From Octopus vulgaris (lineage: Eukaryota): a DNA stretch of 64,000 bases. Of the stretch, positions 1,126 through 51,393 are shown one piece after another. The translations under genes and the position numbers were made by a program. The stretch is taken from assembly GCA_951406725.2 (NCBI GenBank), contig OX597814.1, forward strand, positions 73,966,001 to 74,030,000, written 5' to 3'. A model generated the notes under the pieces. It saw only the letters and a list, made by a program, of their open reading frames with translations, was not told the origin of the DNA and did not search any database. The first letter of the stretch is position 1; every line of letters starts with the position of its first letter.

Positions 1126-1756
1126 CTATTGGAGACAAGGCCTAAAAATTTTTTGGGGAAGAGACTAGTCAATTACATTGATCACAGTGTTCCACTGGTA
1201 CTTAATTTGGTATTACTTAAGAAGAGTGGACCCGATGCATGCACCACACGCACACATGCTAGTCAGTAGACTAGTCAGCACCCACTATATAAAAAAACCT
1301 TCCACATGTATAAATATGTGTAAACTGTAAATCAGAGGGTGGGGGGGGATCTCTCTCTTTCTTATTAAACAAACAACCAACTGAATGAATGAAGATAAAT
1401 CAAATTTTGAAATTGAAATAAAATCTTACTCAAAAATAGTCATTAAGAAAAGTGAAAATAATGAAATAAAATGTTATTTACTAACTCAAAAGTAGTCGTC
1501 AATTCAAAAGTGAACCATTCTGAACGATGTTTTAGAATGTTCCGAAAACATTCAGCTCTAGTTTTCCCATATTTTTCCCTCCAAAGAATCTCATCTAGAT
1601 GGGATTCAATCATATTTGTATCAAACTCCCATCATACTTTTGAATCAGCTTCGGTCAGATATATCTCTCTATCTGATGTGTGTATCTGCACTAGCCAGGT
1701 CAACCAAACAGTTGATTTAATTCTTTGGACAAGCTAGTAGTCAGTGTATTCAAAAT

Positions 1757-2577
1757 GATCTATGATATTTTGCCTCACATTCAGAGTTTTGATGCTGTGT
1801 ATTTGTTTCTCAAGGAGAAGAATGTGTTGAATTGTATAACACCAAAATGCTCTTCTTGTAATAAGGAGATGAGCCTGATAAAATATAAGGAAGGAAAGAT
1901 TTTTTGATGCCCTACACACAAAGCTGAAAATGACTCCCAAGATTTTATTCTTCTGATGTATTTATGGTCCAGAAAAGTCTCCATAAATATCTCATGTGAT
2001 GTGGCAGGTCTTTCAGAAGCAACTGTGATACATTGGTATCAATACATGAGAGACATAGCAAGTCACCATCTTGTATGTAATCCCTACCAAGTTGGAGGAG
2101 TTGGGCACATCGTCGAAATAGACGAATCTTTGATGTGCAAAAGAAAGTATAATAGAGGCAGAATACCACAGGAGAGGAGGATGGGACAGAGAAGACAAAA
2201 TAGGATTTTTGGTGTTTGTGAATGATTGTTCCTCTGAAACTCTGCTCCCCCTTATCAAAAAGTATATAAAACCAGGAATGACTATCCATTCTGATTGTTG
2301 GAGTGGATACAATGGAATAGCTGAAATTGATATCGAACTACGGTATTCACATTTCAAAGTGAACCATAGAGAAAACTTTGTGGATCCAGTAACTAACATA
2401 CATACCAACTCAGTTGAATGTTACTGGAAAAATGCAAAAAGTAGATTCAAAAGTTTGATACAAATATGATTGAATCCTATCTAGATGAGTTTCTTTGGAG
2501 GGAAAAATATGGGAAAACTGGAGATGAATGTTTTTGGAACGTTCTAAAACATCTTTCAGAATGGTTCACTTTTGAAT
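1757..2577 (+). mobile_element. Merlin (IS1595/ISXO2-like) DDE transposase pseudogene
   Basis: CSSC...C zinc ribbon, then HIVEIDESLMCKRKYNRGR, TLLPLIKKYIKPGMTIHSDCWSGY, HFKVNHRENFVDPVTNIHTNSVECYW and SYLDEFLWRE across frameshifted ORFs; TIRs not identified. Confidence 0.9.
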
Positions 2578-2609
2578 GACGACTTGATCAACTTTCATAA
2601 CTAATCTAA

Positions 2610-6187: not shown

Positions 6188-6333
6188 TGTATTTTCCTAT
6201 CCTGTTCCTGAAGGTAAAAGTGCCCAACAAATAGTTGATAGCCTACAAAAACAGGTAGAGTTGTTGGGTGCTGTTAAAGCTGGCAATTTTTATGTTGATT
6301 GTGAAACATATCAGTCTACTCTTCCGAATACAA
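6188..6333 (+). CDS. MED20: Mediator complex subunit 20, first identifiable coding exon
   Basis: ttttcag|t...a|gtaagt; encodes [48 protein letters not shown], matching the MED20 N-terminus (PVAEGKSVQQ...GTFCVDCETY). Confidence 0.93.
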
Positions 6334-7984
6334 GTAAGTTTCATTTATATTACATTTTATATTGCTTTATGTAATATAAATTCAGTATTTTAATAACTGA
6401 GGAAAGTTTTGTGTTAAAAAAAGTTTCAGTTTTAGATATTATTTAGTATCAGGTTAGCCCTAATTGAGTAGATCTATAATGACAGGCATTCAAGCTAGGA
6501 TCATCTTGTTAATATTTTAAAGTATAACGAATGCAAGACTACATCATTCTGAATATACATGTCCTCTTCCCTTTTTAGTGTCAATAAGCAAGAGAGATGT
6601 ACTTTGGTATCTGTTTTGAAAGCTATAGATAAAGAATATAGATAAAAAATTAATCTTGAAGTTTCAAATAGAATTAGTTTATGGACACAGAAAAGGTTGT
6701 GAAGAGCTCCCATCACATCAATGTTTCTCCTCTAACTATTATTAACCTGAAAGAATTCATTATGTGCATTGATCCTAATGTTTGCTCAGGGTGCTATACA
6801 TTTTGAGGAATACTTGATGGATGTTTGTCTTTATTATTGACTCTGGAAAGATGAAAGACAAAGTGAACTCAAAGTGAATATATAGTAAATACTGCAAAAC
6901 ATTTTGTCCACTATAGTTCACTTCTTTATTTAATATATTAATTTCATTAATTCCCACCTAGTTATTCTAATCTTTCTAGGTTACCTGAAAACTTTATAGT
7001 TACTATTTTGCCTCAGGTTAATTAATTTGTTAACTTTGCATCCAGTAGTTTTTGTTAACTGTGTTGTATTATTGCATATAATCATTCTGTACTCAGTGCT
7101 TTCTTTTTTAAATATATGCTGTGCAAAAGTAGGTAACTCCTGGTGAAGTTATTAGATTAGAACGATGTGTTCAAAAGGGTTTACACATTTTGGGTAGAGT
7201 CAGTAAAATCTGCATACTTGAATGGTGCTTATCTAATCGATCTCTGAAAGTGGAATTGATATTCAGTGTATAAAAGAGATATTACTAACACCATATACTT
7301 TACTGATTCAGCCATCCACTGTATTTAACATTCAGACTTAAGCCTCTAAATCAACTTTATTTTGTAATTATTTTTTTTTTACACTAGATACATACTTGAA
7401 AGAGAAGTGGTAGCAGCTGCTTTCTTTGCAGGGCTCCAAGTCTTGTGAGGTTGTTGCATGTTGGAAAAATATAGGGAGGGAGAGAAGGCTACAGTTTTGG
7501 GAAAAGAAAGATTGAACAATGTGTAGTGAGACACAGTAAAGATGAGGGGAGATGGATATGTAAGCAAATACCTTCTTTTATAAAGATGCTAGAATGTTAA
7601 GTGTTATCTGGGCATTATAAATTGATTAGTGATAAAGGATGAGAAACTCAGAGAGTAACAAGCCGAGTGGTTTATATTGTTGTGTAGCTCCAGTTCAATG
7701 ATTATTGAGTTGTCTTGGGGGAAATAAGTTGACATTTAAGTAACTACATGCAACAACCACTGCTCCAGGTACACTATGTCTTCACCTAGTTAATGGCATG
7801 CTGTATACTTTTATATGCTATAGTTAATCATATGAGGTTTAGAATGGTACTCAACTTCCTAGAAGTAGGAGTTAAATGTTCCTCAACAACATCCCATCAT
7901 CTTAAAAAAATGAAGTACGTACTATTGTGGGTTGTATCAAAGTTGGAATGAAATCTATGAATTTGTTCTTTGGAAGGGGTAGAA

Positions 7985-8607: not shown

Positions 8608-8858
8608 CTACTCAACGTTTGATTCATATATTACACAACAGTGAACAACCTGCTACATGTTTTGCCATTCTAGACACAGGCAATTGTCTAGTAGCTGACA
8701 GTCAGTTTGATGTCCTCATGCAACGATTAAAGGGTTTCTATCAACAAAAGAAAGGATCTAAAATTGAATCTAAAGGTCAAAGATATGAATATGGAGATTT
8801 TCTCATCAAAATTGGGACTGTATTAATAGCATCAAGTGTCAAAGGTATCCTTGTAGAG
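8608..8858 (+). CDS. MED20: Mediator complex subunit 20, internal exon
   Basis: tttctag|ct...gag|gtaatt, phase-compatible with both neighbours; LIHILHNSEQPATCFAILDTGNCLVADSQFDVLMQRLKGFYQQKKGSKIESKGQRYEYGDFLIKIGTVLIASSVKGILVE. Confidence 0.95.
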
Positions 8859-9143
8859 GTAATTAATAATTTTATCATTATTTTTTTCTTCTATTCTTTT
8901 ACTTGTTTCAGTCATTTGACTATGGACATGCTGGAGCATTGCTTTGAAGGGTTTTAGTCAAACAAATTAACCCCAGGACTTACTTCTTAAGCCTAATACT
9001 TATTCTATTGGTCTCTTTTGTTGAACCACTGACTTACGGGGATGTAAGCACACCAATACTGGTTGTCAACAGTGATGGGAGGACAAACACAGACATAAAG
9101 ACACACACACACACTTTATTAAAAAGCAGCAAAGATATCACAA

Positions 9144-12966: not shown

Positions 12967-13176
12967 GTGGAATATTATCCATGTGCCATAATCAACGATT
13001 GCTGGAATTTAATGAAAGAACTCATTCAAAGCGTAATGGGTAATATTTTAGACAATCCTCCTGCAACTTTAAAGAACAAGTTAACTTCAGAATACAGTCC
13101 GTCTGACACTGTGCAGCAATATCTTGAACATTTCAATGTTTTCCGCAAAAATGTCTCCACAAATCAGTCACGATGA
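12967..13176 (+). CDS. MED20: Mediator complex subunit 20, last coding exon
   Basis: Polypyrimidine tract + cag|gtg; VEYYPCAIINDCWNLMKELIQSVMG...YSPSDTVQQYLEHFNVFRK...* matches the MED20 C-terminus; AATAAA at 13180-13185. Confidence 0.95.
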   Translation: MEYYPCAIINDCWNLMKELIQSVMGNILDNPPATLKNKLTSEYSPSDTVQQYLEHFNVFRKNVSTNQSR

Positions 13177-32283: not shown

Positions 32284-32285
32284 GG

Positions 32286-32336
32286 AGCTTCTACAGGACT
32301 AGAACTGTTTCATTCAAGAGAAATCTTCAGGAAGCT
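32286..32336 (-). ncRNA. Type I hammerhead ribozyme, family A copy 1
   Basis: agcttc-CTGAAGA-t ttc tctt gaa t-GAAAC ag ttctagtc ct GTA-gaagct. Confidence 0.75.
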
Positions 32337-32600
32337 AGTTAACAAGAATTGTATTGGCATTTATACATTTAGGCAGGTTTATAGGGGTGGTGGTGGGGGA
32401 CTTTTTGGGGGTAGGCATAGCGCAAAAAAATCATACTTGGGGGAGTGGTCAAGGAGTCAGTGGTAAATTAGATAGAAGAATAAATAAAAGAATAAAAAAA
32501 GAATAAAATACAAAAATATATAGAAGAATAGAGTTTTAGGTAAATAAGGAAATTCTCAACACACACACATATACATACACACATACATACACACACACCC

Positions 32601-32631
<31 letters not shown>

Positions 32632-32892
32632 TATACATACATATATCTACATATATATATATATACATATATATATATACATATACATACATACACATAT
32701 ACATGCATATACATATACACACACACATGTATATATACACACACACGACCACACATACACATACACACAAAAAAATATATACATACACACACATACACAT
32801 ACATACATACACACACATATCCACATACACACATGCACACACAACACACAAGTCCCTATATACTCATATATACATATACACATATATGTATG

Positions 32893-32948
<56 letters not shown>

Positions 32949-33356
32949 CATATGTGTACCTATTCATACACATATATGTACGTATACACACACACACATA
33001 TACACATACATACACACACATACATACATATGTGTACCTATTCATACCTACACATACACACATATATACATACAATTACAAACCCATTCCCTAATTTTAA
33101 TTTTATTATCTTCATTTATTACTTTTGTTATCTTTGACCGCTGGTCACAAACATCTTGGCTAGTCCCTTTTATCTTTCTACTTGAGCACAAGCACTCACT
33201 CATGCACGCACACTCATTAGCACGCACACACACTCTCATTCGTACACTCATACACATACACGCACGCACGCGTTATATTCATACATACATACATCTACAT
33301 ACATACACGTATATACACATACGTACGCGTACCTACGCGTACATACACATATACAT

Positions 33357-33445
<89 letters not shown>

Positions 33446-33530
33446 CATACACATACATACATACATATACACATATACACACACACATACATACACATAT
33501 ACACATACACGCACATACACATATACATGC

Positions 33531-33569
<39 letters not shown>

Positions 33570-33654
33570 TATATATATATACATACACACATACACATAC
33601 ACACATACACATATGTACACATACACACACATATTCACATATATATATATATCC

Positions 33655-33687
<33 letters not shown>

Positions 33688-33723
33688 TATACACACACAT
33701 ATATACATGTATGTATGTATATG

Positions 33724-33756
<33 letters not shown>

Positions 33757-33775
33757 GTAGATATATGTATGTATA

Positions 33776-33808
<33 letters not shown>

Positions 33809-34072
33809 GGGTGTGTGTGTATGTATGTGTGTATGTATATGTGTGTGTGTTGAGAATTTCCTTATTTACCTAAAACTCTATTCTTCTATATATTTTTGTA
33901 TTTTATTCTTTTTTTATTCTTTTATTTATTCTTCTATCTAATTTACCACTGACTCCTTGACCACTCCCCCAAGTATGATTTTTTTGCGCTATGCCTACCC
34001 CCAAAAAGTCCCCTACCACCACCCCTATAAACCTGCCTAAATGTATAAATGCCAATACAATTCTTGTTAACT

Positions 34073-34123
34073 AGCTTCCTGAAGATTTCTCTTGAATGAA
34101 ACAGTTCTAGTCCTGTAGAAGCT
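34073..34123 (+). ncRNA. Type I hammerhead ribozyme, family A copy 2
   Basis: Same 51 nt as 32286-32336; 6 bp helix I, GUA triplet at 34115-34117. Confidence 0.75.
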
Positions 34124-34206
34124 CCTTCTATATAATAAATTAATTTTACTCTGCTATGTATTGAGTACCTTATTTACTGTGGTTAACCCCGAATCAACCC
34201 GGGACC

Positions 34207-34247
<41 letters not shown>

Positions 34248-36654: not shown

Positions 36655-36821
36655 ACGCACACACATATAATTATCAAAATTATAAATTAGGGTATCTACG
36701 AGATACCACCATGCTGAAAATAGCAGTCATGATCCGACTCTAAAACCATCTTAAGTTTTCATATAGCAACATGGAGAGAAGACAAAGAGACAAGATGAAG
36801 GTAAAAAAATATTACTGGATA

Positions 36822-36880
36822 ATTCCAGATCCCGGATTTCTGACTTTGCATCTTGGAATACTTTACCTCGTCAGTGGAAT
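36822..36880 (-). ncRNA. Type I hammerhead candidate, family C copy 1
   Basis: Minus: attcca-CTGACGA-ggtaaagtattccaagatgcaaagtc-a-GAAA tcc g gga TC-tggaat; helix II weakened. Confidence 0.55.
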
Positions 36881-37045
36881 ACACTCAGAAAGAAACATAA
36901 ATACATATATATATATATAAACACAACATTTTGAACTAGCCCCGATGCATACGTGCATATATATGTATGTATACGTTCGTATATGTAAGTATTCGTATGT
37001 TGTGTTTATATATATATATATGTATTTATGTTTCTTTCTGAGTGT

Positions 37046-37104
37046 ATTCCACTGACGAGGCAAAGCATTCCGAAATGCAATGCCAGAAATCCAGGATCTG
37101 GAAT
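37046..37104 (+). ncRNA. Type I hammerhead candidate, family C copy 2
   Basis: attcca-CTGACGA-ggca aa gcatt ccga aatgc aa tgcc-a-GAAA tcc a gga TC-tggaat; AUC triplet; extra A before G12. Confidence 0.65.
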
Positions 37105-37335
37105 TATCCAGTAATTTTTTACTAGTTTCATCTTGTCTCTTTGTCTTCTCTCCATGTTGCTATATGAAAACTTAAGGTGGTTTTAGAGTCGGATCATGGC
37201 TGCTATTTTCAGCATGGTGGTATCTTGTAGATACCCTAATTTATAATTTTAATAATTATTACCTTTGAAGGTTATTTTTTTCCCATGCTGGCCACTTGAT
37301 AAGTTCGTTATTTTATTTTAAACTAACGATCTTAT

Positions 37336-40460: not shown

Positions 40461-40661
40461 GAACTAACTGTTAGTTTCACAGATGTAGCACGGAATTTTG
40501 TCAGCGATCAGGTCGCGGTCTCAAAGCGACGAAAATATTTTAGCAAATTAAATTTATATGTTGAAGTGAATCTAACGGAATTTGTGTGTTTTTAAATGGC
40601 TTATAAACACCTTCCACACTGCAATTGTTTTTGTTTCAGCACCTGTTTCAGTTCTGAGATT

Positions 40662-41447
40662 AATTTGATACTGGTTGGTGACCATAGCTGAGAGCAATAG
40701 TCAAAGTGGTTTAGGACAAGTGTCCTCCAAAGGACCATCATGGTTTCCTGATCTCTTGTTCTAAAAGTTCTAAGAATGCATCCGGTCAGTCACCTGCATT
40801 TCATTGCCAATTTAGCAACATGCACATGGAAGGATGCATCATTACTCATGTAAATGCCCAGGTCTCGCACTGACTATGCCTCTGGGATTGCAATCCCTCC
40901 AGGTCCAGTGTATTTAATTAGTATTGCATTTAGTTTTGCATGCTGATAGCACAAGTCTTGAAACTTTTCAGCATTGAACTGCATGCTATTCTTTCCAGCT
41001 CACTTGTCTATTTCATCAGCTTACATTGCACATGCATAATGTCTTCAGGGTTCTGTATTACCCGTGAGATTTGTGTATCATTTGCATAACTTGTGATCAT
41101 CGATCTCTGTGTGGCTGAGGGCATGTCTGAGAGGGCCATTATGAACTGTAGTGGTCCCCAAAAAGTGCCTTGCGGAACACCGTTCACTATTTGCGTGTCA
41201 TTGGAGCTGGCCCCATTGGCTCCTACCACCTGACTTCTATCCTTCAGAAAGTCACGAAGCCATTCTCCCAATTTTCCGACTATGTCAAGACCACGTAGTT
41301 TGTGACATATCATTCCATGATTGACTTTATCAAAGGCCTTTGCAAACTCCAGACATATCACTTTCATATTTGAAGCAGCTGCTTTGAGACCGCGACCTGT
41401 TCGCTGACAAAATTCCGTGCTACATCTGTGAAACTAACAGTTCGTTC

Positions 41448-41478
<31 letters not shown>

Positions 41479-42360
41479 TGTTGTAAGAGCTGAGTCAGGC
41501 AGCTTCTTCCTGGTCGGAAACCATGTTGGGTGTCAGTCAGCAAGTCATTTTCTTCAAGGAAGGTGATTAGTTTTCTTCTAACTATTCGTTCCATGACCTT
41601 GCTGATGTGCGAGGTCAGAGAGATAAGTCTGTAGTTTTTGGCCTCTGTTCTGCTACCTCCTTTATGAATATGACATATTTTACCCTCCTTCAGTTTACTT
41701 GGAAGTTTGCCAGTTGCAATGAAGCTCTGAAAGAGGGACTGCAGTGGTCTTGCTAGGACTCGCTTACATGCTTTTAGAAGGATTGCTGGGAATCCATCAG
41801 GGCCAGCAGCTGCGTTTGGATTCATTTCATCTATAGCCTTTATTACATCGTCTTTTTTTTTATATTGATGTAATCGATCATCACTGCATCTGTTTTTATA
41901 TCTGGTAGTCTTGTGTATTGGGTATAGTCCCATCTGTGAGATTGATGTAGCCAGGTCAGCTGCGGTACAATCTTTTGTGCCATGCACCAAAAGATTGTTG
42001 TTTAGCAGCTGTCCTTTCAACAACATGTTGATAAGACTGGTTTGTCGCACGCCTACATCTGCGTATCTCCATTTTGGGGCAGGTGTTGCGTAGTCCTTTC
42101 CTTTTGGCTGGTGGTTTCCGCCCTGTTTCATGTTTGCGTGGCGGAGGCTTTGATGTGCAAAACGGCAGCTTGCACCTCCCTCACCATGTCAGCAGACACC
42201 TTTCAAGTAGAATTTGCACATTCATGTGTGCTGTCTCTTTTTATCCTTTTTGTTATATGGGCAGTCAGGTTTGCTTCTTTCATTGGCTGTTTCATCTTTT
42301 GTTTTTGCTCCTTTTAGTTGTTCTTTCTTGGCTCTTTCACCACCATGGTTTTTCGCTTTG
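40662..42360 (-). mobile_element. CR1/L2-like LINE RT fragment, degenerate
   Basis: AAGPDGFPAILLK, NYRLISLTSHISKVMER, QHGFRPGRSCLTQLL, LEFAKAFDKVNH, GVPQGT, SYANDT, YCSQLWSP. Confidence 0.9.
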
Positions 42361-45084: not shown

Positions 45085-45624
45085 CATATATATATGTGTG
45101 TGTGTGTGTGTGTATGTGTGTGTGTGTAAATGCGCGTGTGTCTGTGATTCTATTTTCTGCGTATCTTTCTAAATAAACATATGCAAACACATATACATTC
45201 ACTCATATATATAAATATATTTTACACAAAAACACACAAATACTCACACAGAGTTGAAGCCCTGTTTGATTTTTGTTTCACCGTTGACTTTTCACCATTC
45301 CACTTCCATCGGTGGATTACCCCTTCCTTCCTCATTCATATGTTGTGTCGGAGAAATACAGAATAGTATTATTATAGTAGATTATCATACTAGAAGACTC
45401 ACGGCGCTCTCTTTGCTATTTCCTTTCTCTCATTGTTATTACTTTCTCTCAGTCCCTCTCAGTCATGGCTATTATTTTCACAACTTCTCCTTCACTGAAT
45501 TACTATTTTCGCTCCTCTCCCTTCACTGTTCATTCTTTCTACGTGATTTTGGACATACACACACATAAACACACACACACATACATACAAATATATAAAA
45601 AGCACTACGCTCATCATTATATTA

Positions 45625-45657
<33 letters not shown>

Positions 45658-45664
45658 CATATAT

Positions 45665-46110
45665 ACTTGGAAGTGGATGCGTGGCGTTCCATCATATAAT
45701 AACAAAATAATAAATAAAACATATGCATATATACATACATATATGTACGTACCTACATCTATATGTATATATACATGCATATATGGGTACAGGACACCAA
45801 AAACACCTCGAGCACAATGAGAAACGAAAACATAAAAACAAAACCAAGGAAACGGACATTTTTTAAACAACAAGATATACAACACAAGGAAAATTCCCCT
45901 TCTTCAGCCGCCTCTGTTTCGTCTACTCTGTGTTTCGAAAGTGAAGGCGAGACACGACTTCGCTGAAACAGTACTTCCCGCAAAGCAAATTAAATAAAAT
46001 TAAAAATTTTTTGCGGAGGGGTAAAAGTGGTAACAAAAACAGGACAGTAAAGACAATACAAATAAAAACAGTAAAAGACAGGACAAGGACAGCCACGCCT
46101 ATAATATATA

Positions 46111-46150
<40 letters not shown>

Positions 46151-46400
46151 TATATATTATAGGCGTGACTGTCCTTGTCCTGTCTTTTACTGTTTTTATT
46201 TGTATTGTCTTTACTTTCCTGTTTTTGTTACCACTTTACCCCTCCGCAGTGAAGGAGAAGTTGTGAAAATAATAGCCATGACTGAGAGGGACTGAGAGAA
46301 AGTAATAACAATGAGAGAAAGGAAATAGCAAAGAGAGCGCCGTGAGTCTTCTAGTATGATAATCTACTATAATAATACTCAGTCATACAATAGTGTAATA
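45665..46400. mobile_element. pLTR-type repeat with fold-back and captured flanking DNA
   Basis: 46012-46120 is inverted at 46141-46248; 46247-46379 is the reverse complement of 45365-45497. Confidence 0.75.
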
Positions 46401-47129: not shown

Positions 47130-47638
47130 AGTCATACAATAGTGTAATAAATAAATATATGCATACATACAAACATATATGTACGTACCTACATCTACAT
47201 GTATATATACATGCATATATAAATATATATACGTGTGTACAGGACACCACAAATAGATGTAGAACTCAACGAGAAACGAAAACGTAAAAACGGCATGGAA
47301 CGGACCATTTTTATAACAGCGAAAAAACAGAGTACACGACAACTACACAAGGAAAAATCCCCTTCATCAGCTGTCCACCTTCGAAACACGCTGGAGTTCA
47401 ACTAGGGACTACTGATGAAGGGGATTTTTCCTTGTGTAGTTGTCTTGTACTCTGTTTTTTCGTTGTTAAAAAAATGGTCCGTTCCATGGTGTTTTTACGT
47501 TTTCGTTTCTCGTTGAGTTCTACGTCTATTTGTGGTGTCCTGTACACACGTATATATATTTATATATGCATATATATATACATGTAGATGTAGGTACATA
47601 CATATATGTTTGTATGTATGCATATATTTTATTTATTA

Positions 47639-47970: not shown

Positions 47971-48090
47971 TAAGTACTGGGCTTACAAAGAATAAGCCCC
48001 GGGGTCGATTTGCTCGACTAAAGGCGGTGCTCCAGCATGGCCGCAGTCAAATGACTGAAACAAGTAAAAGAGTAAAAGAGTATATATATC

Positions 48091-48139
<49 letters not shown>

Positions 48140-48152
48140 CTATTATATATAT

Positions 48153-48190
<38 letters not shown>

Positions 48191-48273
48191 GGTCCCGGGT
48201 TGATTCGGGGTTAACCACAGTAAATAAGGTACTCAATACATAGCAGAGTAAAATTAATTTATTATATAGAAGG

Positions 48274-48324
48274 AGTTTCTACAGGACTAGAACTGTTTCA
48301 TTCAAGAGAAATCTTCAGGAAGCT
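48274..48324 (-). ncRNA. Type I hammerhead ribozyme, family A copy 3
   Basis: As family A, with one helix I substitution (gaaact). Confidence 0.7.
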
Positions 48325-48641
48325 AGTTAACAAGAATTGTATTGGCATTTATACATTTAGGCCTATCTCTGACTTCACACACCAGGAAAGTCATGGAACG
48401 AATAGTCAGAGGGAAACCAATTGCATTCTTCGAAGAAAATGACTTGCTGAATGATACCCAGCATGGCTTTCGACTATGTAGGAGCTGCCTGACCCAGCTC
48501 CTACAACACTATGACTGTGTGTTGAAGCAGTTAGTCGACAACTCAAATGTGGACGTAAAATACCTTGACTTTGCATAAGTTTTTGATAAAATTAATCACG
48601 GTATGATAAATGTATAAATGCCAATACAATTCTTGTTAACT

Positions 48642-48692
48642 AGCTTCCTGAAGATTTCTCTTGAATGAAACAGTTCTAGTCCTGTAGAAGCT
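48642..48692 (+). ncRNA. Type I hammerhead ribozyme, family A copy 4
   Basis: Identical to 34073-34123. Confidence 0.75.
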
Positions 48693-48707
48693 CCTTCTAT
48701 ATAATAA

Positions 48708-48738
<31 letters not shown>

Positions 48739-48739
48739 C

Positions 48740-48808
<69 letters not shown>

Positions 48809-49056
48809 ATTATATATATATACATATCTATTATAAACAACTTATAAATAAGGGCATGCTGGCCATTGATAAAATTTTTTTCGAAAAAATTTTATCCTAC
48901 ATTATATATATATCTATTATATATATATATATCTATTCTATATATTGTTGTATTTGGGGATGGTCATGTTGCCAGTTTAGCCAATAAAACACACGCACTA
49001 TATATTTGGTGTTAATTTGCTTTAGCTTTATTCATTTTTTACGTTAATCGTATCTC

Positions 49057-49929: not shown

Positions 49930-51393
49930 GGCAGTTACGATGTATTACATCGACGTTGGTGAAGAAGATATAATACTAGACATAGATTAGGTGGACGCAC
50001 ACTCAGCTGCTGGCCTTGATGGTTTACCAGCAATTCTTCTGAAATCGAGCGAACATGCCTTGGCAAAACCATTAGGGATTCTCTTTCAGAGTTTTCTTGC
50101 AAATGTCAAGCTGCCATGCAAACTGAAGGAAGGAATAATATGCCGAATCCACAAAAGAGGAAGCAGAGCAGATACCAAAAAATTTAGGCCTATCTCTGAC
50201 TTCACACACCAGGAAAGTCATGGAACAAATAGTCAGAGGGAAACCAATTGCATTCTTCGAAGAAAATGACTTGCTGAATGATACCCAGCATGGCTTTCGA
50301 CTATGTAGGAGCTGCCTGACCCAGCTCCTACAACACTATGACTGTGTGTTGAAGCAGTTAGTCGACAACTCAAATGTGGACGTAAAATACCTTGACTTTG
50401 CATAAGTTTTTGATAAAATTAATCACGGTATGATATGCCACAAACTGCGCTATCTTGGCATAGCTGGAAAACTTGGAGAATGGTTACATGACTTTCTGAA
50501 AGATAGAAGTTAGGCAGTAGTGGTCATTGGAGCCACCTCAAAGAAAACACAAATAGTGAGTGGTGTTCCACAGGGCACTGTCTTGGGACTACTGCTTTTT
50601 ATAGTGGCCCTCTCAGATATGCCCTCAGCTTCCCGGATAGCCACCCTTGCAAGCTATGCTGACGATACGAAAGTCTCACAGAAAATACAAAATCCTAGCG
50701 ATTTTGCACGCCTGCAGCAGAAGTTGGACGCAATTTACAGATGGGCTGAGGATAATAATATGCAGTTTAATGCTTGAAAATTCCAATTCCTGCGCTACCA
50801 AAACTGAATGAAAACCTTACAGGGTACATTGGCTCAGGTGGGGATTACAATCCCAGAATATAAATCAGTGAGGGACCTGGGTATTAACATGAGTGATGAT
50901 ACCTCTTTCCAAGTGCACATTACCAGGATGGCGACAAAGTGCAGACGGCTGGCTGGATCCTGAGAACCTTCAGAACCAGAGAGAAGGAAACCATAACGGT
51001 CCTCTGGAAGATATCCGTATGCAATCGTCTAGACTACTGCTCCCAAATATGGTCACCCCACAGTGTAACATTAACAGCGGACCATGAAGCAATCCAGCGA
51101 AGCTTCACAAAGAAGATCGTCTCATTGCAACAGCTCAGCTACTGGGAAATGTTGAAACAGCTAAGACTACTCCCTGGAGTGAAGGCGGGAGAAATATGCA
51201 GAAATATACATCTGGAAGATGTTAGAAGTGATTGTGCCAAATTTTGGCATTGAAAGCTACACAAATGCCAGAACGGGTCGCCACTGCATTGTGCCAAAGA
51301 TCTCAACAATGCTATCGCGTTTCAGGACTAGTTCCTGCAGAAGACTGGGTTTCAGGGGCCCACAGCCTGAGGGACCTACACAAGGTGGATGTA
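49930..51393 (+). mobile_element. CR1/L2-like LINE RT fragment, interrupted by Tc1 and resuming at 53098-53200
   Basis: AAGLDGLPAILLK, QHGFRLCRSCLTQLL, SGVPQGTVLG, SYADDTK, DYCSQIWSP; reads ...LHKVDV|GVFKTKL across the Tc1 insertion. Confidence 0.9.

What the first reader, a model, noticed from the sequence alone, without database searches (positions are those of the whole stretch)
48188..48709. Hammerhead element captured 254 bp of neighbouring genomic DNA between its inverted arms
Seen: two divergent family-A arms enclose 48355-48608, which matches 50182-50435 about 1.8 kb downstream with one mismatch. The copy includes that dead LINE's own frameshift and its GCA-TAA stop. The left junction has 8 bp of microhomology (atttaggc) shared by element and donor; the right junction has 2 bp (ta). 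Inference: the polymerase switched from the element onto local chromosomal DNA and back during integration. The product is a cassette of foreign DNA bracketed by a ribozyme on each strand, a possible route for local duplication or transduction.
Basis: partly seen in the sequence, partly recalled or inferred. Interest (0 to 1): 0.8.

Follow-up and report, generated by a model that had tools for sequence, protein, structure and literature searches.

The report
Penelope insertion bridged by local DNA
A Penelope-like jumping gene left two short head-to-head pieces of itself with a 254-base copy of DNA from about 1.5 kb away between them; the same thing is seen at several other sites in this genome and is likely a repair patch made while the insertion was being closed, not a new mobile cassette.

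Summary
In detail: 48355-48608 equals 50182-50435 (one mismatch, 8-bp and 2-bp junction overlaps), and the next-best genomic hit is 89%. 'Family A' is the hammerhead-bearing terminal repeat (pLTR) of an active Penelope-like retrotransposon with Hydra-clade protein features. Its inverted pairs carry the 69-nt tail on one arm only (64 of 65 classifiable pairs), and either arm can be the longer, so both cut ends were likely primed separately on RNA. The two cDNAs have the same polarity and cannot anneal except at short palindromes, so the centre needs a patch. Local patches recur: five are verified genome-wide (this one and four others, two of them single-copy DNA), one against fetched loci only, and three have repeat donors. 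They are 58-371 bp long and lie 0.07-3.7 kb away, on either side and in either orientation. Best reading: a templated insertion made at integration, as known for L1 but from farther away. No onward transduction was found, and each RNA strand has only one sense ribozyme. No listed contig from four other samples spans the junctions, so read-level proof is missing.

The parts
48081..48187 (.). (TA)n-rich target, left flank
48188..48362 (-). Tailed pLTR arm (5'-truncated; positions 197-371 of the natural copy at 33839-34209); reads as cDNA on the top strand
48188..48256 (-). 69-nt tail, present on this arm only; in full-length copies it leads on to the ORF
48274..48324 (-). Type I hammerhead-like motif, with a stem I mismatch from the variant at 48276
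   Evidence: activity untested
48355..48362 (+). 8-bp microhomology shared by arm and donor 50182-50189
48355..48608 (+). 254-bp templated copy of 50182-50435, including the donor's frameshift and stop
48607..48709 (+). Tail-less pLTR arm (positions 200-302); 2-bp overlap with the patch
48642..48692 (+). Type I hammerhead-like motif; predicted cut after 48686 (GUA)
   Evidence: no Rfam hit
48710..48830 (.). (TA)n-rich target, right flank
50182..50435 (+). Donor segment inside a dead LINE RT fragment (about 49960-51300), 1473-1726 bp from the right end of the insertion
32284..34209 (.). Second inverted insertion of the same element in the window (tail-less arm left, tailed arm right); the spacer looks like element 3' UTR by eye

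Best explanation
A Penelope-like retrotransposon inserted into a (TA)n tract as two head-to-head terminal-repeat pieces, and the gap between them holds a copy of DNA 1.5-1.7 kb away that was likely made as a repair patch during integration. Shown: the anatomy, the source of the patch, the tail on one arm only, and recurrence at other loci. Inferred steps: (1) the endonuclease cuts both strands; (2) each 3' end primes reverse transcription of element RNA, one at the tail end and one 69 nt further in; (3) both cDNAs stall early and, having the same polarity, cannot pair with each other; (4) the left cDNA end anneals by 8 bp to single-stranded DNA exposed by resection of the right flank and is extended 254 nt away from the break, probably by a host end-joining polymerase of the Pol theta type, possibly by the RT; (5) the new strand lets go and is joined to the right cDNA through 2 bp; the flank is filled in, leaving the donor intact.
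For: Donor is the nearest relative genome-wide and private lesions are copied. Tail on exactly one arm in 64 of 65 classifiable pairs (72 examined, 7 unclassified). Tailed arm longer in 21, tail-less longer in 23, about equal in 24 of 68 (automatic and approximate). The ORF-bearing arm is tail-less in L138, L164, L165, L166, L176 and tailed in L163, L172, L178, L179, which a simple fold-back of one cDNA cannot give. Many of the 50 listed of 1799 short pairs join at or near the self-complementary GAAGCTTC (by eye). Other local patches: L186 and L189 are single-copy DNA with only the local donor; L219 99% local vs 95% next; L208 99% vs 94%; L179 100% local vs 91% best among 140 other loci. Slip-back or snap-back pieces at the junctions of L094, L190 and L219, in L094 and L190 at the donor end nearest the break. 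A PLE protein cuts and extends both strands and has two RT start sites that define the tail (PMC11167929).
Against: No listed contig in four public runs crosses either junction; donor contigs run through with donor flanks. Any side and orientation of donor can be fitted by the resection model, so geometry alone does not test it. The other eight cases have overlaps of only about 0-4 bp (read by eye), and about 10% of possible cDNA ends (27 of 280) would find some 8-bp match within 3 kb. In L094 both arms end at the same base and share 4 non-element bases, which favours fold-back there. The G at 48400 is the family's ancestral base (G at that column in 16 of 18 relatives), while donor contigs of other samples show one difference from the copy, in two runs bounded to an interval that holds 48400; this is not explained simply. 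Patches of 250 bp from over 1 kb away are longer and farther than I recall for typical Pol theta inserts.
Confidence: 0.65

Rival explanations
1. The element first inserted as a near-perfect palindrome; the hairpin or cruciform was later cut at its centre and repaired with a templated local patch.
For: Both arms stop at nearly the same element position here (197 and 200) and in L094, L186 and L219. Central revision of palindromes is known (recalled, no call).
Against: Near-equal arms are also common without any patch (24 of 68). L208 and L179 have patches between unequal arms. Hundreds of short palindromic insertions persist unpatched.
Confidence: 0.17
2. The RT itself jumped from element RNA onto a transcript of the neighbouring locus: the right-arm cDNA jumped with 2 nt of overlap, copied 254 nt leftwards, and its end annealed to the left cDNA by 8 bp.
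For: A 2-bp start and an 8-bp closing join fit an RT jump. Two small runs hold the donor as a contig (X1, X19); their size suggests RNA, but they are not on record as RNA. The single change is A in donor to G in copy, as RNA editing would give.
Against: Mismatches in the other cases are mixed. Donors lie on both sides and in both orientations. G is the ancestral base. No gene was found over the site; MED20 ends near 13170.
Confidence: 0.1
3. One cDNA only: it left the RNA, copied the local DNA, then folded back on itself and copied its own arm (closest to the first reader's 'out and back').
For: The right arm begins inside the 8-bp overlap, 3 nt from the left switch point. L094 fits fold-back with a 5-bp pairing. 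Arms of one pair are usually identical (39 of 69 with no mismatch in an 86-nt core).
Against: Fold-back cannot make a tail-less arm longer than the tailed one (23 of 68; five ORF-bearing cases). Here it would prime on 2 bp across a 254-nt loop.
Confidence: 0.05
4. Assembly artefact.
For: No listed junction-spanning contig in four runs; the site is flanked by long (TA)n tracts.
Against: The same architecture occurs at other loci with diverged copies (94.7-99%). Junctions have microhomology, and the copy differs from the donor at one base.
Confidence: 0.03

Closest known systems
L1 templated insertions (10.1101/2024.08.27.596794, 22 instances in a set of 3,598 insertions; PMC11702581, three insertions with DNA templated from near the site)
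   Same: Non-element genomic DNA from near the target is copied into a new retrotransposon insertion; similar size; the rate here (at least 8 of 1799 pairs, a lower bound) is of the same order.
   Different: The L1 templates are typically under 250 bp and within 15 bp of the site; here they lie 0.07-3.7 kb away and sit between two overlapping inverted cDNAs of a Penelope-like element.
Host DNA capture between pLTRs in Adineta vaga Penelope elements (PMC3846280)
   Same: Host sequence enclosed by pLTRs; palindromic head-to-head junctions; microhomology at 5' junctions.
   Different: There the spacers are 0.9-1.5 kb or a whole gene moved to a new site, mostly between direct pLTRs, and no local donor is described in the parts read. 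The authors explain inverted repeats by self-priming on an antisense template; the data here fit two primings on sense RNA.
L1 twin priming (passages in PMC11702581 and 10.1101/2024.08.27.596794)
   Same: Both target ends prime cDNA; an inverted segment results; the inner junction is closed by end joining with microhomology.
   Different: In L1 the two cDNAs cover mostly adjacent parts of the RNA; here they start 69 nt apart and cover the same part, giving an inverted duplication.
Hydra clade of Penelope-like elements (PMC8557442, section 11)
   Same: C-terminal GIY-YIG-type endonuclease, DKT, CxCx5C linker, CxxC and CxH near the end, hammerhead in the pLTR, (TA)n targets.
   Different: Unit about 5.4 kb because of a microsatellite-rich 3' UTR (described elements are generally under 3 kb); RWR instead of RWK; no tree was built.
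Non-LTR retrozymes (10.64898/2026.07.22.740005)
   Same: Short non-coding pieces with a type I hammerhead related to PLE pLTRs.
   Different: Retrozymes are direct tandem repeats with a ribozyme in each unit; this is an inverted, truncated insertion scar.

Membership tests
Penelope-like element (EN+) | Single ORF with RT and GIY-YIG endonuclease downstream of the pLTR | tested here: met
   713-aa ORF directly after the family-A repeat in L161; RT (YRDD) and EN (YIG) motifs read by eye. Pfam gave no relevant hit.
Penelope-like element (EN+) | Partial tandem and inverted pLTR arrangements | tested here: met
   Tandems L161, L168, L179; inverted arms in many loci
Penelope-like element (EN+) | Tail on one end of the insertion only | tested here: met
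   64 of 65 classifiable pairs; 69 nt against 30-40 bp described
Hydra clade | DKT, CxCx5C linker, no internal CCHH, terminal CxxC and CxH | tested here: met
   Read by eye in P0001 against PMC8557442 section 11
Hydra clade | RWK motif; length generally under 3 kb | tested here: inconclusive
   RWR in P0001; tandem period 5449 bp
Hydra clade | Insertion into (TA)n | tested here: met
   Outer ends of nearly all 72 pairs run into (TA)n
Hydra clade | Placement in an RT phylogeny | not tested
   No reference proteins were fetched
Type I hammerhead ribozyme | CUGANGA, GAAA, NUH core with three helices | tested here: met
   Core, 6-bp stem I, 3-bp stem II, 4-bp stem III laid out by hand; N7 varies A/T and loop II varies among 251 copies. 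The minimum-energy fold is not the hammerhead and z is about 0.
Type I hammerhead ribozyme | G10.1-C11.1 pair; covariation; Rfam match | tested here: not met
   U at both positions flanking stem II in 251 of 251 copies matched; no compensatory change among the commonest pair types printed; no Rfam hammerhead hit; feature from PMC4209133
Type I hammerhead ribozyme | Self-cleavage | not testable with these tools
   Needs an in vitro assay
Retrotransposon-associated templated insertion | Insert best matches DNA near the site, donor intact, junction microhomology | tested here: met
Retrotransposon-associated templated insertion | Formed in the same event as the insertion | not testable with these tools
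   Needs empty or intermediate alleles or de novo insertions; could not show them
Transduction / retrozyme cassette | Dispersed copies of the chimera; sense ribozymes at both ends | tested here: not met
   No dispersed copies among scored hits; ribozymes on opposite strands

The most novel reading that the evidence does not exclude
Inverted pLTRs of Penelope-like elements arise because both cut strands prime reverse transcription at two fixed RNA sites, leaving two same-polarity cDNAs that must be bridged; the bridge is regularly copied from single-stranded flank DNA up to 3.7 kb away. These insertions would then be a genomic record of the unresolved integration intermediate and of resection length, and a small steady source of local duplications of unique DNA.
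Probability: 0.45. Interest if true: 0.65.

Novelty: new variant of a known kind. Interest (0 to 1): 0.42.

Why it matters
How Penelope-like elements make their tandem and inverted repeats is named as an open question in PMC8557442, and PMC3846280 offers self-priming on an antisense template. This very young, high-copy family gives hundreds of natural products to test models against. The one-tail rule, the symmetric arm lengths and the local patches point to double priming plus host end joining. The patch itself is a dead LINE fragment with no evident function, and templated inserts are already known for L1, so the single locus is ordinary; the value is mechanistic.

Tried and rejected
Rfam at gathering score over the window and at E<=10 over the finding: no hammerhead. 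Pfam on the 713-aa ORF: only a sub-threshold chance hit. A first masking of spacers was too permissive and missed L094; it was replaced by a 12-mer test. Spacers without a local donor within 5 kb: L080 (another repeat, best 93% elsewhere), L184, L185, L215, L213. L125, L214, L066 and L109 residuals look like sequence of other subfamilies (by eye). L190's patch equals its local donor but also at least 40 identical copies elsewhere; L094 and L191 donors are repeats with similar copies at other loci: all three are counted as ambiguous. An RNA-editing origin of the mismatch found no consistent support. The idea that the site lies in a MED20 intron was rejected. Contigs of four runs show no listed junction, but contigs show presence, not absence, and 2390 pieces were not listed. 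Pairs with more than 500 bp between anchors could not be listed by pattern; the 24 pairs were not fetched as a set. Two look-ups of earlier scan notes returned nothing. Literature searches that found no paper on local templated DNA between inverted pLTRs or on PLE twin priming; the library lacks most subscription papers, and no supplements were read.

Full report
Observation. The segment 48355-48608 matches 50182-50435 over 254 bp with one mismatch (48400 G, 50227 A); the left overlap with the element is 8 bp and the right 2 bp. A search of the 2.8-Gb genome found the donor at 99.6% and nothing else above 89% among the 40 scored of 2461 candidates. The donor is part of a dead LINE RT fragment; its 2-bp deletion and GCA-TAA stop are private and are in the copy.

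The element. The arm sequence has 1618 first-look candidates, and the 40 scored are 99-100% identical. Loci L032 and L043 join it to an endonuclease-coding frame. In L161 the repeat plus its tail leads directly into a 713-aa ORF in a tandem of period 5449 bp. The protein has DKT, a CxCx5C linker and terminal CxxC and CxH, as described for the Hydra clade (PMC8557442, section 11 and passages); no tree was built and Pfam gave no relevant hit. So 'family A' is a pLTR. Its hammerhead-like motif has the core, a GUA site and three short stems; among 251 copies N7 and loop II vary. It lacks the G10.1-C11.1 pair noted in PMC4209133 (passages), shows no compensatory change among the commonest pair types, is not the predicted best fold and has no Rfam match. 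Activity is untested.

How the inverted arms form. An exact-anchor pattern found 99 inverted pairs with up to 500 bp between anchors; all 72 with more than 100 bp were fetched with 5-kb flanks or lay in the window. One belonged to another family and was dropped, and one shorter pair was added, giving 72, of which three are tandem replicates. The tail is on exactly one arm in 64 of 65 classifiable pairs; 7 were unclassified. The tail-less arm ends at an AT-rich motif 69 nt inside, often with repeated AAAT units. With replicates removed, the tailed arm was longer in 21, the tail-less in 23 and about equal in 24 of 68; this is automatic, and the window's own pair was wrongly counted as 'tailed longer'. 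Among long insertions the ORF-bearing arm is tail-less in five and tailed in four. A fold-back of one cDNA cannot give both, so both ends were likely primed on RNA. This fits the in vitro result that a PLE protein cuts and extends both strands and uses two start sites (PMC11167929, parts 1-2 of 4). Two such cDNAs have the same sequence and can pair only at palindromes; a ribozyme-anchored pattern finds 1799 pairs, and many of the 50 listed join at or near GAAGCTTC. PMC3846280 (parts 2-4 of 5) explains such junctions by self-priming on an antisense template instead.

Recurrence of local patches. Among the 72 pairs, local donors were found for the window and L094. A second set of 41 pairs, partly picked by eye from listings, added L186, L189, L190, L191, L208 and L219. 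Self-comparison of 29 longer loci added L179. Genome-wide tests: L186 and L189 exist only as patch and local donor; L219 is 99% to the local copy and 95% to the next; L208 99% and 94%. L179 is 100% local against 91% best in 140 other loci. L190, L094 and L191 have repeat donors and are ambiguous. One class is unbiased: all 50 listed (of 56) pairs with 301-500 bp between ribozyme anchors were examined, and 3 have a verified local patch and 1 an ambiguous one. Five non-element spacers had no donor within 5 kb. Patches are 58-371 bp, about 65-3700 bp from the nearest element end. All four donors on the tail-less side are direct; on the tailed side three are inverted and two direct. Overlaps in the other cases are about 0-4 bp, and L094, L190 and L219 have slip-back or snap-back pieces. 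I recall such pieces as marks of Pol theta end joining; I saw only search listings for that.

Mechanism at this locus (inferred). The top-strand cDNA from the left end stalled at ATTTAGGC, annealed to the same 8 bases 1.47 kb into the resected right flank, was extended 254 nt away from the break, released, and joined to the right-hand cDNA through TA. Completing the first annealing would have deleted 1.5 kb; aborting it left a duplication. About 10% of possible cDNA ends would find some 8-bp match within 3 kb (27 of 280), so such a site is easy to find. Which polymerase copied the patch is not shown.

Results against. None of the listed pieces from four public runs crosses a junction; donor contigs continue into donor flanks in all four, and X1 and X19 have no cover at 48616-48632. 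The structure is therefore young or private, or, much less likely, an artefact. The copy has the family's ancestral G (16 of 18 relatives), yet donor contigs in those runs differ from the copy at one place, in two runs within an interval holding 48400; the letter was not printed. Either the copy changed back, or it was copied from a G-bearing allele. L094 fits fold-back better than double priming. Later repair of a palindrome cannot be excluded without alleles.

Cassette and transduction. The ribozymes face outward on opposite strands, so one transcript has one sense ribozyme, downstream of the patch. The tail here is followed by (TA)n and not by the start of the ORF, which the PLE of PMC11167929 needs for activity; remobilisation is thus unlikely (inferred from another clade). 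No dispersed copies were seen.

Comparison. It works like an L1 templated insertion (10.1101/2024.08.27.596794, passages; PMC11702581, passages), with more distant donors and an inverted two-cDNA frame. Host DNA between pLTRs is known from PMC3846280. It is not a retrozyme (10.64898/2026.07.22.740005, part 1 of 5). Searches found no paper on local patches between inverted pLTRs; subscription papers and supplements were not seen and may hold such cases.

Verdict. Real, recurrent, and a new variant of a known repair by-product. Interest 0.42, mostly for what the family shows about how Penelope-like elements integrate.

Noticed in passing
genome-wide: 1799 inverted pairs anchored on the ribozyme; most of the 50 listed are tiny palindromic insertions that join at or near stem I of the hammerhead, as if the RT stalls or the cDNAs pair there.
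   Followed up: partly
72 pairs: The tail-less end often carries repeated AAAT or A runs before the (TA)n target, like reiterative, telomerase-style priming.
   Followed up: no
L161:6272-8410; 150 genomic hits: Very young Hydra-like PLE family with several long open frames (680-722 codons) and a unit of about 5.4 kb; many copies have an open frame of exactly 225 codons at the C-terminal part, breaking near a C run.
   Followed up: partly
window 32284-34209: Second inverted insertion of the same element, with a spacer that looks like element 3' UTR.
   Followed up: partly
window about 6189-6335, 8610-8867, about 12970-13170 (+): Exons of MED20 (Mediator subunit 20).
   Followed up: partly
window 1494-2584, 36667-37259, 45365-46379, 47153-47629: Other inverted-repeat pairs (94%, 93%, 100%, 96%), probably MITE-like elements.
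   Followed up: no
L173:6552-9417, L167:6778-8451, L169:4928-5513: Complex near-identical local duplications and inversions beside PLE copies; possibly multi-round templated patches or tandem duplication of the flank.
   Followed up: no
L098, L099 (C27:8171575-8184730); C11:81657404-81658205: Whole inverted insertions repeated in tandem by later local duplication.
   Followed up: no
L190:4892-5086: Belongs to another very young repeat with at least 40 identical copies, often in inverted pairs; likely a second active PLE family.
   Followed up: no
window 40660-41854 (-): A second, 70-82% identical copy of the donor's LINE family.
   Followed up: no
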